In this document: in pieces, positions 6,593 through 47,375 of the stretch
Position numbering within the stretch: the stretch's first letter is position 1
Layout of the letters: each line of letters begins with the position of its first letter
NCBI GenBank assembly: GCA_010093745.1
Contig: MU005983.1
Coordinates: 62,001 to 126,000, forward strand
From: Piedraia hortae CBS 480.64
Lineage: Eukaryota
DNA length: 64,000 nt
Reading direction: 5' to 3'
Translations under genes and position numbers: made by a program
The notes under the pieces: model-generated
Databases searched by the model: none
The model's input: only the letters and a program-made list of their open reading frames with translations
What the model was told of the DNA's origin: nothing

Positions 6593-6673
6593 TGCCACCA
6601 GGCGGAATCGAACCGCCGATCTTCTCATGATCACGCTTACGAGTGAGACGCTGTACCACTAAGCCATGGCGGC
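6593..6673 (-). tRNA. tRNA-Thr(CGT) with 9-nt intron
   Basis: Reverse strand folds as GCCGCCA/TGGTGGC acceptor stem, D loop AGTGGTA, TCTCA/TGAGA anticodon stem with CT-CGT-A, intron AGCGTGATC, GGCGG-TTCGATT-CCGCC T arm; T6 Pol III terminator just downstream. Confidence 0.93.
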
Positions 6674-35727: not shown

Positions 35728-35805
35728 GGGCGTGTAGCTCAGTGGTAGAGCGCTCGCTTTGCATTGGTGTGCGAGAAGTCTAGGGTTCGATCCCCTACTC
35801 GTCCA
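35728..35805 (+). tRNA. tRNA-Ala(TGC) with 6-nt intron
   Basis: GGGCGTG/CTCGTCC acceptor stem with G3:U70, GCTC/GAGC D stem, CTCGC/GCGAG anticodon stem with TT-TGC-A, extra TTGGTG after position 37, TAGGG-TTCGATC-CCCTA T arm, T7 terminator. Confidence 0.93.
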
Positions 35806-43291: not shown

Positions 43292-45021
43292 TTAAACCAG
43301 TATCTCCCTAACCCCCCTAGGCCCAAGATCATTATACTCAATCCTGTTCAAAAACCCCTTAATCCCACTCTCCCCGTTAACCGAAGCCTGGGGAGAAGCA
43401 TACAGAACCCTAGCCGCAATCTGCGCCCCAACAAACCCAGCATCATAATAATTCACTTCCTTCCACTCGGCGAAATGTTCGGGGACTTTAGCCATCTTGA
43501 TCGAACTCGGGGTTTGGGGGATGGAAAATCCTCCTGCGCCTAACCCGCCCGCGGCGTATAAATTTGGGGGGGGGGCGGGGTGAGCGGACTGGGTAGGGTG
43601 ATATCCCCCCACCGCCAACCCTTCCCCACTCCCAACCTGAAACCGTCTCTGCAGAGAAAGAAGGACAGCTTCGCGGAAGCCGGGAACACGACTCCCCTGT
43701 CCCGTGATGATGATATTTTCCCATAATTCCCCCCTTCGCGATGTCACCGGACATGTAGTGATGGAGAGATAGATTTTTGAGGTTAGTGTGTTGAGGAAGG
43801 AGGGCGAGGCGGGGGAGAAACGCTCTGTTCCAACTTCGATTTCTCGGTTATTCTCTTGGGGTTTGCCTGGGGAGGGTTTGTCTTGGGATGCTTCACCCGT
43901 TTCGGTTAGTTTATCACTTGAGGTTGATGCACCCCCTTGTACTCCAGTGTTGGATTTCTCAGAAACACCCTGGCGGGGAATATTCTCATAGAGGAAAGTG
44001 TTTATGATGCGTTTATGATTCGCGAGTTTCGCAGGCGGGAGGGCCGCTTCTGCGCCCTTCTTAGCCTGTTTAGCTGCTTTCTCGCGCTCTTTCTGCGCAA
44101 GATATTCATTCATATGACCTCCGGTGACGATACTCGCAATGTCGAGAACGCCTTCGTCGTCTTCGAGCCGTTTCTCTACTGTCACTTCCACCGCGGGGGG
44201 TTGTAGGGCTGCTACCGTGGTGGGGTTGTGGTCAGAGGAGGGGACTTCGCTCAGCTGCTCCGGCGAGAGGATCTCACAGATGGGACTCTTTTTCAGCTGT
44301 TCGCACATTTCGTGGTCGAAGTCCCTACCGCGTAAAAGTTCAAGGAGATGCTGTGTCATCGCCTCCCCTCCGCAGCCCGGCATCGCCAGCGTACGGCCGA
44401 TTTCGTGGACGGTATAGTCTGTTATGCATGTTACGTCTGCTTTGTCGAGACCAATGTCGACGATTGTTGCGGTGCTGACGTTATAGGCATACGCTACGGC
44501 CGAGGCGGAATCGATCATGGAGAAGGCTGGGACCTTGAATTTTTCGAAGAAGAATTGCGTGATGCGCTCGTGATCGCGGACGGTCCAGACTGGCTCCGCG
44601 ACAATGATGACGGGGGTGTGGAACGGGGGGTTAACCATGTTGTAGACGTGCGTCATTAGTGCGAAGAAACAGGGCCAGTCGACGATGCGGCCGTGTTGGA
44701 TGGGCCACACGGCGCCGGATTGTGAGATATCTTCTTCCCATTCGGCTTCGTCGTTGTCATCATCCTTCACCCCACCATCCTTGGGTGTATTACCCCCCTC
44801 CTTCACCTTCTTCCGTACTTTGATCGCTTCAAACTCGCCTGCTTTGGCCGCGCGGAACATGCGCGACGGGATGTGGTGTCGCGGGGGAGAAAACGACTCC
44901 AGCAGGCCCAGCTGCGCTAGCGTCGTCGCTGAGCCGGGCGCGATGATCTGCTGATGTTAGCTCATGACATCCTTGTTGGGTTTCCCCGTACAAAGAGCTG
45001 GTCCTCGCGAAAGGCGGGCAT
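43292..45021 (-). CDS. ARP9: Actin-related protein Arp9 (RSC/SWI-SNF), 2 exons
   Basis: Spliced N-terminus MPAFREDQLF/IIAPGSATTLAQLGL (intron 44948-44991), WPIQHGRIVDW, CEQLKKSPICE, WENIIITGQGSR, PEHFAEWK. Confidence 0.88.
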
Positions 45022-45177
45022 CGTGCGCGCAACTTAAGGCCGTTTGCGACAAAATTCCCCGCGGCGGGGGGGGGGGGGTGGCGGAATTGTTCCGTCTTCC
45101 GTGAGCTTGACCAGCATGTGCAACTACATGCAACTCTGAAAAAACCCCCCCCACATCCAGTGTGGCGTACCGCTGCC

Positions 45178-46265
45178 CTACTCCAAAAACCACTTCGGCA
45201 CCTCCGGCCCCCACACCGCCAACGACTCATTTCCCGCGGGAACCCATTTCACCGGCGTCTCATTGGTAACCATATCTCCATCCGCATAATGCTCAATCAT
45301 ATTCCCGTGCACATCCCACCAATAATCAAAAATGTTCTGCCATCGTCAGCTGATCCCCCCACCCCGCATCACTGGTATCAACTCATCTGAGAACCAAGAA
45401 TATGTCTCCCAATCCCCCAAACACTCTCATACCCCCTCTTCCTCAACCACTGATGTCCAATATGCTGCGTATCAAAATCATGTACCTCAAAACTCGCATG
45501 GTGCACATGTCTCGTCTCGTTCTGCGTAATAAACAACGAATGATGATCCACAGCCTCGTCGCCCCGATCAATATGCATAAAAACACCAATATCCCTCTTC
45601 CCTTCACCATCCGTCACATACAAAAAATCCGACGGCGCAAAGTTGAAGGTGCGGGTATACCAGTCCAACTGCCTCTCAAACTTCTGCGAGCAGAACCCGT
45701 AATGACCCAGTTTATGCACCGCTGCAGGGCCGACCTCGAACCGATTGAACCTCCTGATCCGCGGCTTTTCGTCCTCATAATTATACTGTATCTTCTCCGG
45801 AAACTCTCCCTTCGTGGCCCGCTCCTGGCCGTAGATCAGACTTATGGGAAAGCCCTCTAGATCATGAAGAGTGAGCATATACCCCCCTCCGGGGGAATAA
45901 TCTAGCGAAACAATCCCCCCAGCACCTTTCATCCTCGAAGCTTTTTCCATCTCCCCGTAGTCGTCAACTTCAAACACCCCACCGAGAAACTTCCTCTCCC
46001 CCTTGCAAGCGTAGTACACATACGGATCGGTCCCGTACCCGCGGAACCAGGCCTCGGTGGGGGTTCGCTTTGCAACGACCATGCCAAAGTCAATGAGGAA
46101 AGTCGTTATCCTATCGAGGTCGGGGTGTTGGTACCGCACATGCGAGATTCGGGTGAGATTGATCAGTTTTGTAGGATCGATCCCGTTGCGCTGCCGCCAT
46201 TGGGCGAGGGATTCGTCGTAGGGACTTAAGCCCTTGGTATCCGGGACGGTTACGCCGTGAGCCAT
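45178..46265 (-). CDS. Two-domain VOC/glyoxalase-family extradiol dioxygenase (trihydroxytoluene oxygenase-like), 2 exons with non-canonical intron
   Basis: VHKLGHYG, VDHH, HVHHASFEVHDFD, WGIGRHILGSQ, then exon 2 IFDYWWD...IEHYADGD...WGPEVPKWFLE*; the intervening 45334-45386 starts ATGAGT. Confidence 0.88.
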
Positions 46266-46345
46266 TGTTGCATCTCTGATGCTGCTCCATCATATGATGC
46301 GGGGTTAACTTGCCTGTGGCCTGCCTACCAAAAGCGGTATACCGC

Positions 46346-47375
46346 TCACTCGTACCTCACTCTATTGACCAGCGTCCCCAGTCCCTCAATCGTAATCCTT
46401 ATATCATCCCCATCCATCAACCCACGCTTCGGCTCATGAAAGAACCCAATTCCCGCCGGCGTGCCAGTGAGAATCATCGTGCCCGCCTCCAACATCGTCC
46501 CCTGCGAAAAATACGAAACCAGCTCCCTAACGGGGAAAATCATATCACTTTTAACGTCAGCACAACACCCCCCCCCAAAAAAAAAAAAAACTCCTACCAC
46601 ATACCTCGTCCTCCCACTCTGCACCACAACCCCATTATGTCTCGCCTCAATGCCTAGCCCCTGCGGATCTCTTATTGCGGCGGCCGAAACAAGCGTCGGT
46701 CCAACTGGACAGCTGGAATCGAACCCCTTAGAGAATGACCATTGCGTGGTCATGAACTGGAGATTTCGCGCGGATACGTCGTTGGAGATTGTGTAGCCTA
46801 GGATGTGGTCGTAAGCGTCTTCTTGCGGGATGTCACGACCGGATTTGCCGATCACGACGCAGAGTTCGGCTTCGTAGTCGCTTGTTCCGTCTTGGGCGAT
46901 TTTGGGGATGGTGATGGTGCTGGGGTAAGGGTCGGTTAGGGAGGTGCGGGGTTTGGTGAAGAGGATGGGGACTTTGGGGGGGGACATTTGCGCTTCCTGA
47001 ATTGATGAGTTGGGGGGTTGCAAGGAGGGGGGGAGGGGGGGAGGGGAGGAAGATGACCTTCGCGTGGTCATGGTAATTGAGGCCTACGCAACGGATGTAG
47101 GTGCATTGTTCGGGTGTGACGGGGGAGAAGACCTTTGGGGTAAGTTAGGATGGGTTGGTTTTTGGGGAATGGGTTCAGCATACCCTCCGAACGGTCAAGA
47201 GAGCAGATGTGACTGTGCCGGTGAATATGTCTCCGTTGATGCGGTATGCTTGGACCACATCGCCTTTTTCTAGTGCGAGGCCGACGTCGAGGTTCGTGTT
47301 TTTTAATTGGCCAAGGTGGATGCGCCCGTCTTCAATGGCTTCGAATCGCACGAGATGCGTCCATGAGGGTGCCAT
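46346..47375 (-). CDS. Fumarylacetoacetate hydrolase family protein, 4 exons
   Basis: WTHLVRF, IRCVGLNYHDHA, PILFTKP, DYEAEL, GYTISNDVSAR, KGFDSSCPVGP, ILTGTPAG; introns 47133-47183, 46997-47057, 46548-46604. Confidence 0.93.

What the first reader, a model, noticed from the sequence alone, without database searches (positions are those of the whole stretch)
45334..45386. Apparent AT-AC intron with U2-type signals in the ring-cleavage dioxygenase gene
Seen: on the minus strand the frame reads ...GGT TCT CAG|ATGAGTTGA...GCTGAC GATGGCAGAAC|ATT TTT GAT TAT TGG. The donor is a U2 consensus (GTGAGT) with G1 changed to A. The branch point is ordinary U2 type. No GT donor restores the frame without removing the conserved WGIGRH motif. 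Splicing from AT to the AC three nt past the CAG gives GSQIFDYW, the form I recall for this family; the AG acceptor would insert an extra Asn. Both exons are otherwise intact. Established: filamentous ascomycetes lack the U12 spliceosome, the U12 donor is ATATCC, and in yeast a G1A donor mutation is rescued by C at the last intron base. Inference: this is a natural AT-AC intron handled by the major spliceosome, possibly limiting expression of the catabolic enzyme.
Basis: partly seen in the sequence, partly recalled or inferred. Interest (0 to 1): 0.75.

Follow-up and report, generated by a model that had tools for sequence, protein, structure and literature searches.

The report
Real AT-AC intron in fungal dioxygenase gene
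A 53-base intron in a fungal ring-cleavage dioxygenase gene starts with AT and ends with AC instead of the usual GT and AG, is nevertheless cut out exactly, and seems to be shared by a small group of related fungi: a rare but already known kind of intron.

Summary
On the minus strand, exon 1 (46265..45387) ends in GIGRHILGSQ. A 53-nt gap follows (45386..45334): ATGAGT at its start, GCTGAC inside, a CAG, then AAC. Exon 2 (45333..45178) starts IFDYWW.

No GT/GC-AG intron keeps the frame without deleting WGIGRHILGSQ. No homologue has the extra Asn that the CAG acceptor would give.

A contig of run X2, from another study, skips exactly 53 nt and joins GSQ to IFDYW. The tool only guesses that X2 is RNA. 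Only three registers fit that contig: AT-AC, TG-CA and GA-AT. None is canonical.

A 100% identical neighbouring protein names the source as Piedraia hortae, a Dothideomycete. Dikarya are reported to lack minor introns. The 5' site and branch site are U2-like, not U12-like.

The four nearest relatives carry an Ile codon (AT.) directly after the Gln codon. Together with the window they form one supported branch.

Verdict: a genuine U2-type (type II) AT-AC intron, so a new member of a known rare kind. There is no sign that it limits expression. The role of the major spliceosome is inferred, not shown.

The parts
45387..46265 (-). Exon 1 of the VOC-superfamily, extradiol-dioxygenase-like gene (293 codons, ATG at 46265, ends GIGRHILGSQ)
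   Evidence: Open frame. Pfam PF00903 scores 33.1 bits against a cut-off of 20.6. 567 homologues at E<=0.001, the best non-self at 65% identity.
45334..45386 (-). 53-nt intron, AT..AC in the preferred register
   Evidence: Sequence. The X2 contig skips 53 nt here, with 131 letters on the shorter side and 2 letters that fit either side.
45381..45386 (-). 5' splice site ATGAGT (the U2-type hexamer GTGAGT with A at +1)
   Evidence: The metazoan U2-type AT-AC consensus /ATAAGT is quoted in PMC5029451.
45345..45350 (-). Candidate branch site GCTGAC. The branch A at 45346 lies 12 nt before the intron's last base and 9 nt before the G of the bypassed CAG.
   Evidence: Sequence. CTGAC/CTAAC sit in the same place in relatives' GT-AG introns. 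That CTRAC is the fungal branch consensus is recalled.
45337..45339 (-). CAG that is not used as acceptor; using it would add Asn
   Evidence: One search gives NIFDYW for this acceptor. The X2 contig skips 53 nt, not 50.
45334..45335 (-). Terminal AC of the intron
45178..45333 (-). Exon 2 (51 codons and TAG), IFDYWWDVHGNMIEHY... to ...WFLE
   Evidence: 42 of 52 aligned residues are identical to the C-terminus of P0051, and both end at the same place. It aligns with the Tyr..Glu part of a solved VOC dioxygenase (3b59).
46346..47083 (-). Upstream neighbour on the same strand: fumarylacetoacetate-hydrolase-family gene, about 80 nt from the dioxygenase ATG
   Evidence: Pfam PF01557, E 1.2e-55. The X2 contig runs from the dioxygenase gene into its last exon.

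Best explanation
The 53 bases at 45386..45334 (minus strand) are a genuine spliceosomal intron of the rare U2-type (type II) AT-AC class. It looks like an ordinary short ascomycete intron, with an ATGAGT 5' site and a GCTGAC branch site 12 nt from the 3' end. The difference is that its first base is A instead of G and its last base is C instead of G.

I infer that the major spliceosome removes it. I also infer that the A(first)-C(last) pair stands in for the usual G-G contact in the second catalytic step. That would explain why the AC is used and not the CAG three bases upstream.

Splicing joins GSQ to IFDYW. It restores the C-terminal 51 residues, which carry the likely active-site Tyr and metal-binding Glu. 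The AT start is inherited: it is shared by all five known members of one branch of the family.

Shown: the sequence, the failure of canonical alternatives, exact 53-nt removal in a transcript-like contig, the family junction, and the clade pattern at the 5' end. Inferred: the register, the major spliceosome, the A-C pairing, and the catalytic role of exon 2.
For: (1) Searches give the anatomy described above. Both exons are open and in different frames, so the gap must be removed.

(2): the only in-frame GT/GC-AG options delete WGIGRHILGSQ.

(3): an X2 contig (1270 nt, from another sample and study, no other letters) covers 45201-45331 and then 45385-46500. It skips 53 nt. No X2 contig covers the intron.

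(4): the contig's joined sequence fits only AT-AC, TG-CA or GA-AT. In every register the 3' end is not AG.

(5): 127 of 145 homologues read GSQ-[ILV]FDY and none has an inserted Asn; exon 2 is 81% identical to P0051's C-terminus.

(6): read-through gene calls P0004, P0005, P0009 and P0015 have Ile (ATH) right after GSQ, followed by Ser/Ser/Arg/Ser. These codons allow AG., as in AT.AG.. In P0004 and P0005 the last intron codon is His/Tyr (.AY), which cannot be AG. With the window, these four form one branch. Support is FastTree 96 (146 rows) and IQ-TREE SH-aLRT 97 (59 of those rows, picked by me).

(7): the host is a Dothideomycete; passages of PMC10639083 find no convincing minor introns in Ascomycota or Basidiomycota. 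The site has no ATATCC-type 5' motif.

(8): passages of PMC5029451 state that an engineered AT-AC intron splices in yeast, which lacks the minor spliceosome.
Against: The tool labels X2 'RNA?' as a guess; no listed run is on record as RNA.

The transcript cannot fix the register.

The only DNA run that confirms bases 45386 and 45334 (X1) may be the assembly's own source.

The relatives' intron ends are inferred from amino acids, not read from DNA. Their third codon positions are unknown, so AC could be AT. Their DNA was not among the 80 metagenome loci fetched, and 0 of the 76 loci with the motif have an AT start.

Contigs drop rare variants, so a minor CAG-using or unspliced form is not excluded.

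No genome was held. The absence of U11/U12/U4atac/U6atac in this organism therefore rests on the literature for the phylum.
Confidence: 0.8

Rival explanations
1. X2 is a DNA run of another strain in which the 53 bases are absent. That could be precise intron loss, or the window's copy could carry an insertion. would then show no splicing.
For: The tool marks X2's RNA status as a guess. The contig has no mismatch to the window, so X2 is the same or a very close strain.
Against: X2 has no cover over the intergenic 44954-45169, and its word depths are 610-737 against about 12 in the DNA run.

A second X2 contig starts to align at 44947, directly after a CTAAC..CAGCAG acceptor of the neighbouring gene, with 6 unaligned letters before it. 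That looks like another splice.

A precise 53-nt loss that restores the family junction would itself be best explained by reverse transcription of an mRNA spliced at these sites. An insertion is unlikely, because four relatives have an AT-start interruption at the same place.
Confidence: 0.07
2. The gene is a recent pseudogene or carries an assembly error. In this view a GT-AG intron suffered a G-to-A change (or a miscall) at 45386 and is no longer spliced properly.
For: ATGAGT is one change from GTGAGT. An in-frame CAG lies 3 nt upstream of the AC. The only confirming DNA run may be the source. The database's own entry for this gene stops at GSQM (P0003, 294 aa).
Against: With GT and the CAG the product would carry an extra Asn, which 0 of 145 homologues have. 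The X2 contig uses the 53-nt skip, whose 3' end is not AG whatever base stands at 45386. Exon 2 is intact and 81% identical to P0051. Four relatives also start the interruption with an Ile codon.
Confidence: 0.04
3. The 53 bases are removed in another register (TG-CA or GA-AT), or by something other than the spliceosome. Examples would be an endonuclease-ligase route as for HAC1, or template switching during library preparation.
For: All three registers give the same joined sequence. PMC5029451 leaves the mechanism of the yeast RPL30 AT-AC intron open (passages).
Against: Only the AT-AC register puts a five-of-six U2-type 5' hexamer at the intron start and belongs to a documented class. The branch-like GCTGAC sits at the usual distance. 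The region folds no better than shuffles (z +1.21; 183 of 200 shuffles fold as well). That gives no support to a structure-guided cut. The repeat at the joint is only 2 nt, and the joined form is the one assembled at depth 737.
Confidence: 0.05
4. It is a U12-type (minor spliceosome) AT-AC intron.
For: The terminal dinucleotides AT and AC are the classic minor-intron pair.
Against: The 5' site is ATGAGT, not ATATCC, and there is no TCCTTAAC-like branch site. The host is a Dothideomycete, and minor introns and most minor snRNAs are reported absent from Dikarya (passages of PMC10639083). Rfam found only two tRNAs in the window. That says little, since the window is 64 kb.
Confidence: 0.01

Closest known systems
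U2-type (type II) AT-AC introns, e.g. human SCN4A and SCN5A (Sheth et al. 2006, PMC1557818, passages read)
   Same: AT..AC ends combined with an otherwise U2-type 5' site, and borders conserved between distant species. That survey counted 24 among 610,067 introns of five species. It mentions that xylanase genes of filamentous fungi were hypothesised to hold such introns.
   Different: This one is a 53-nt ascomycete intron in a catabolic enzyme gene. Its position +3 is G (ATGAGT), not the /ATAAGT consensus quoted. Dependence on U1, U2, U4 and U6 was shown experimentally for SCN4A/5A and not here.
Engineered yeast intron with A at the first and C at the last position (Parker and Siliciano 1993). 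I saw it only as cited in PMC5029451; the details are recalled.
   Same: The same pair of changes (G1 to A, last G to C) is tolerated by a major-spliceosome-only fungus. It offers the mechanistic model for why AC is chosen here over a nearer CAG.
   Different: The yeast case is a laboratory double mutant with reduced efficiency (recalled). Here the pair is natural and apparently inherited within a clade.
Endogenous AT-AC junctions in ascomycetes: the intron nested in S. cerevisiae RPL30 (PMC5029451) and an AT-AC site among the non-canonical sites of Fusarium graminearum (PMC3577648)
   Same: These are AT-AC junctions seen in RNA of fungi without a minor spliceosome.
   Different: The RPL30 form makes up 1-2% of the mRNAs, and its 5' site does not resemble U2-type AT-AC sites. 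Here the AT-AC form is the only one assembled, is needed for the conserved reading frame, and has a near-consensus 5' site. The F. graminearum paper gives no conservation analysis in the passage read.
U12-type AT-AC introns
   Same: The terminal dinucleotides.
   Different: There is no ATATCCTT 5' motif and no TCCTTAAC branch motif, and the host phylum is reported to lack the machinery.

Membership tests
U2-type (type II) AT-AC intron | Intron begins with AT and ends with AC | tested here: met
   45386-45385 = AT and 45335-45334 = AC. This is one of three registers that fit the X2 contig, and the transcript alone cannot choose among them.
U2-type (type II) AT-AC intron | 5' splice site matches the U2-type consensus except at +1 | tested here: met
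   ATGAGT against GTGAGT. Relatives' GT-AG introns 1 nt away start GTGAGT, GTAAGT or GTATGT. The criterion is as in Sheth 2006.
U2-type (type II) AT-AC intron | Actually removed from the transcript at these borders | tested here: met
   The X2 contig skips exactly 53 nt. Caveat: X2's RNA status is the tool's guess, and contigs hide minor forms.
U2-type (type II) AT-AC intron | Splicing depends on the major snRNPs (U1, U2, U4, U6) and not the minor ones | not testable with these tools
   Inferred from the U2-like signals and from the literature on Dikarya. No genome was held in which to look for minor snRNAs.
U12-type intron | 5' site /ATATCCTT (or GTATCCTT) | tested here: not met
   The site reads ATGAGTTG. 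The consensus is quoted.
U12-type intron | TCCTTAAC-like branch site 10-15 nt from the 3' end | tested here: not met
   The last 25 nt hold GCTGAC only. The motif is recalled.
VOC superfamily / type I extradiol dioxygenase (the host gene) | Pfam PF00903 above its gathering score | tested here: met
   33.1 bits against 20.6 on exon 1.
VOC superfamily / type I extradiol dioxygenase (the host gene) | Equivalog of a named bacterial enzyme (HpaD, catechol 2,3-dioxygenase, BphC) | tested here: not met
   The best hit is TIGR02295 at 38.6 bits (64.2 for the full-length relative P0007) against a cut-off of 321. The substrate is therefore unknown. Names such as 'trihydroxytoluene oxygenase' are the sources' own labels.
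VOC superfamily / type I extradiol dioxygenase (the host gene) | C-terminal Tyr and metal-binding Glu present | tested here: inconclusive
   FDYW..IEHY of the family aligns with FSYF..TEY of PDB 3b59 (E 1e-4). Which residues bind metal is recalled, not tested.

The most novel reading that the evidence does not exclude
The AT..AC pair may not be a one-off lesion but an old, stably inherited state. All five known members of one deep branch of this dioxygenase family keep an A-first intron at this site (path lengths of about 1.1-1.4 changes per site between the window and the others). At least three of them have a non-AG 3' end. The site lies inside a 14-nt stretch where relatives place GT-AG introns at six or more other positions.

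If so, this is a natural covariation record of the first-last nucleotide contact of the major spliceosome. It would also be a case where that contact overrides a nearer CAG. It would further point to a systematic blind spot of fungal gene callers, since the stored protein for this gene stops at the intron.
Probability: 0.5. Interest if true: 0.5.

Novelty: new member of a known kind. Interest (0 to 1): 0.4.

Why it matters
Natural U2-type AT-AC introns are very rare: 24 of about 610,000 introns in the survey. In fungi they are mostly counted from annotations, not examined one by one.

This intron is short and near-consensus, appears constitutively spliced, and looks conserved within a clade. 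Its host should have only the major spliceosome. It also has a competing CAG 3 nt upstream of the AC.

That makes it a compact natural substrate for testing how the first and last intron bases are matched in the second step of splicing.

There is a practical side too. Gene callers restricted to GT/GC-AG truncate this enzyme: the stored entry P0003 ends at GSQM. Non-canonical junctions should therefore be allowed when RNA supports them.

It does not open a new class of mechanism.

Tried and rejected
- Own genome: not held. No genome-wide scan for minor snRNAs or other AT-AC introns could be made.
- Rfam on the 64-kb window gave only two tRNAs.
- Sequencing runs: no RNA holder is listed. X2 is 'RNA?' by the tool's guess. 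The single read-laying run was used on 44900-46500, so X2 could not be tested on other introns. Holes in X2 cover (44954-45200) prove nothing by the tool's own note.
- DNA of the AT-type relatives: the one metagenome scan returned 80 loci. None of them was P0004, P0005, P0009 or P0015, and 0 of the 76 loci with the motif had an AT start.
The origin and names of those four proteins stay unknown.
- Canonical rescue: every GT/GC..AG pair in 45440..45290 was enumerated. Only two keep the frame, and both delete the conserved motif.
- Structure-guided excision: the fold of 45401..45319 is no better than shuffles (z +1.21).
- Origin by a 1-nt slide from the relatives' CA|GT..AG|R intron (L006, L007, L008, L046, L047, L054; L010 is cut off). 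I considered this and set it aside as less parsimonious, because it needs insertions at both ends. Two substitutions in a phase-0 GT-AG intron, like the one P0012 seems to have, would be enough. This is not decidable without DNA.
- 'Limits expression': nothing bears on it.
- PDB: no hit for exon 1.
- Earlier findings of this scan: none for this genome or for these words.
- Literature: searches found no paper on this gene's intron. One search was too loose to be useful. Many hits of one search were polyketide-synthase 'AT-ACP' domain strings.

Full report
**Observation**

The minus strand of 44400..46600 holds an open frame from the ATG at 46265 to 45387. It is 293 codons long and ends GIGRHILGSQ. 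Directly after the CAG come ATGAGT and an in-frame TGA. The downstream frame, IFDYWWDVHGNMIEHY... to WFLE and a TAG at 45180..45178, is open from 45333. It is also open from 45336 if the CAG at 45339..45337 were the acceptor, and that choice adds Asn. The stretch between the two exons is 53 nt (45386..45334). It begins AT, ends AC, and contains GCTGAC with its A 12 nt from the end.

**Can a canonical intron do the job?**

I enumerated every GT or GC donor and AG acceptor in 45440..45290. Only two pairs leave an open frame. Both start at 45422 (GTTTGG), and both delete WGIGRHILGSQ.

**The gene**

Exon 1 matches Pfam PF00903 (glyoxalase/bleomycin-resistance/dioxygenase) above its cut-off. It hits bacterial extradiol dioxygenase equivalogs only far below theirs. 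It has hundreds of fungal homologues. The best non-self hit is 65% identical.

I classified 145 homologues. Of these, 114 continue GSQ-[ILV]FDYW and 13 continue GSQ-[ILV]FDY followed by a later intron. The other 18 are interrupted at or near the site, and none has an Asn between GSQ and IFDYW.

Exon 2 is 42/52 identical to the C-terminus of P0051 and ends at the same residue. In the full-length relative P0007, the segment WGIGRHILGSQIFDYW..IEHY aligns with WGPGRHTAGNNTFSYF..TEY of the solved VOC dioxygenase 3b59. The intron therefore sits inside the conserved C-terminal active-site region. The exact residue roles are recalled, not tested. The gene looks functional and needs this exact join.

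**Transcript evidence**

Two public runs hold the stretch. X1 is DNA and may be the assembly's own source. X2 comes from another sample and study and is labelled 'RNA?' as a guess.

I laid both on 44900..46500.
- X1 is colinear through the intron, with no listed difference.
- One X2 contig (1270 nt, word depth 737, no other letters) covers 45201-45331 and then 45385-46500. It skips 53 nt, with 131 letters on the shorter side and 2 letters that fit either side.
- No X2 contig covers the intron.

Three things fit RNA:
- X2 has no cover on the intergenic 44954-45169.
- Its depths are about 60 times those of X1.
- A second X2 contig begins to align at 44947, directly after a CTAAC..CAGCAG acceptor of the neighbouring actin-related gene, with 6 unaligned letters in front.

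These are hints, not proof. Even if X2 were DNA, a precise 53-nt absence that recreates the family junction would be most simply a reverse-transcribed copy of the same splice.

**Register**

AT stands both at the start of the gap and at the start of exon 2. The joined sequence therefore fits three cuts: AT-AC, TG-CA or GA-AT. None is GT-AG, and in all three the 3' end is not AG whatever base is called at 45386. Only AT-AC puts a five-of-six U2-type hexamer at the intron start and belongs to a documented class.

**Which spliceosome?**

The window's glycine dehydrogenase ORF is 100% identical to a protein that its source names Piedraia hortae CBS 480.64. That protein lies on a contig of the same length as the one holding this gene's stored protein. 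The next best hits are 79-80% identical, in Capnodiales.

Passages of PMC10639083 report no convincing minor introns in Ascomycota and Basidiomycota, loss of most minor snRNAs there, and 'complete absence' of minor introns from Dikarya.

The intron has no ATATCC-type 5' site. Its branch-like GCTGAC resembles the CTGAC/CTAAC seen at the same place in relatives' GT-AG introns. Its fold is no better than shuffles. I could not scan the organism's genome, because none was held. Major-spliceosome removal is therefore a well-grounded inference and not a result.

**Relatives**

Many database homologues are gene calls that read through introns, so their tails reveal the first intron codons.
- Four of them (P0004, P0005, P0009, P0015) have Ile (ATH) directly after GSQ. 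It is followed by Ser, Ser, Arg and Ser, codon families that allow AG., i.e. AT.AG.
- P0004 and P0005 return in frame to IFDY after 19 codons. The last of those codons is His or Tyr (.AY), which cannot be AG.
- Leu-Thr pairs in the tails could encode CTAAC.
- These four are also the window protein's nearest relatives.
- In trees of the exon-1 region, the five form one branch: FastTree 96 on 146 rows, and IQ-TREE quick SH-aLRT 97 on 59 rows that I picked to represent the clades.
- P0051 is their sister. Its intron state is unknown, because it is a spliced annotation.

In the 80 metagenome loci fetched with the family alignment, 76 hold the motif and none has an AT start. About 42 of these loci are continuous, although one search's sorting put at least two with a TG|GT intron (L030, L059) in this group. 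Fifteen have an intron in the Trp codon (T|GT). About twelve have TG|GT. Seven have an intron 1 nt upstream of the window's site (CA|GTRAGT...YAG|R); six are full and L010 is cut off.

The DNA of the four AT-type relatives could not be fetched. The 3' AC in them therefore remains a codon-level inference.

**Mechanism**

The simplest reading is an ordinary short intron in which G(first) became A and G(last) became C.

PMC5029451 cites Parker and Siliciano 1993 for an engineered AT-AC intron that splices in yeast. The detail that each single change blocks the second step is recalled.

The pairing model would also explain why the CAG, 9 nt from the branch A, is passed over for the AC at 12 nt. 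A branch-to-AG distance of about 10 nt is used in relative L006, so the CAG is probably not too close. That is inference.

Only the spliced form was assembled, and contig depth is no measure of efficiency.

**What is known**

U2-type (type II) AT-AC introns are documented, all from passages read:
- Sheth et al. 2006 counted 24 among 610,067 introns of five species. They note experimental proof for SCN4A and SCN5A and a hypothesis for fungal xylanase genes.
- Frey and Pucker 2020 find AT-AC rare in fungal annotations.
- An RNA-seq study of Fusarium graminearum lists AT-AC among the non-canonical sites.
- Yeast RPL30 has a 1-2% AT-AC isoform with an atypical 5' site.
- A survey of fungal pathogens counts AT-AC junctions.

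My four searches found nothing on this gene or clade.

The finding is therefore a real, well-formed new member of a known rare kind. Its added value is the apparent inheritance within a clade and the competing CAG.

**Limits**

- The RNA status of X2 is a guess.
- The register is ambiguous from the transcript alone.
- The DNA confirmation may not be independent.
- The relatives' borders are inferred from peptides.
- Spliceosome dependence is untested.

Noticed in passing
family-wide, around window 45387/45333; loci L001-L079; proteins P0006-P0136: Within about 14 nt around GSQ|IFDYW the family shows at least seven intron positions. They are CA|GT in the Gln codon, phase 0 after Gln (GT in P0012, AT in the window's branch), three positions in or after the Phe codon (read-through tails IL*, ICK/ICS, IFVS/IFVC), T|GT and TG|GT in the Trp codon. 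Close relatives within one subclade (P0010, P0012, P0016) differ in position. This looks like a hot spot of intron sliding or repeated gain.
   Followed up: partly
P0004, P0005 (relatives; no DNA held): Their read-through tails imply two interruptions only 13 nt apart: the AT-start one after GSQ and a T|GT one in the Trp codon. That would leave a 13-nt micro-exon coding IFDY plus one base.
   Followed up: no
window 45378..46265 (-); protein P0003: The database's stored protein for this gene is 294 aa and ends GSQM. It is one residue short of the GSQMS that plain read-through to the TGA would give, and it lacks the 51 C-terminal residues. The gene call evidently failed at the non-canonical intron. 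Why it ends at M is unexplained.
   Followed up: no
window 44948..44991 (-): The actin-related gene downstream (ATG at 45021) seems to have a 44-nt first intron, GTACGG..CTAAC..CAGCAG, with a tandem NAGNAG acceptor. The X2 contig aligns from 44947, i.e. after the second CAG.
   Followed up: partly
window 46266..46345 and 46346..47083 (-): A fumarylacetoacetate-hydrolase-family gene ends only about 80 nt upstream of the dioxygenase ATG on the same strand. One X2 contig runs across both. It ends about 3 nt short of the predicted acceptor (46527) of that gene's last intron (GTACGT..CTGAC..TTAG). This may be a catabolic gene pair with overlapping or read-through transcripts.
   Followed up: no
window 46567..46590, 45065..45078, 45143..45156 (-): Long homopolymer runs sit in an intron and in the intergenic DNA: T14 followed by G9, a run of about 14 C, and G8 followed by T6. 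X1 contigs break near one of them.
   Followed up: no
window 35728..35805 (+) and 6593..6673 (-): Two tRNA genes are the only Rfam matches in the window.
   Followed up: no
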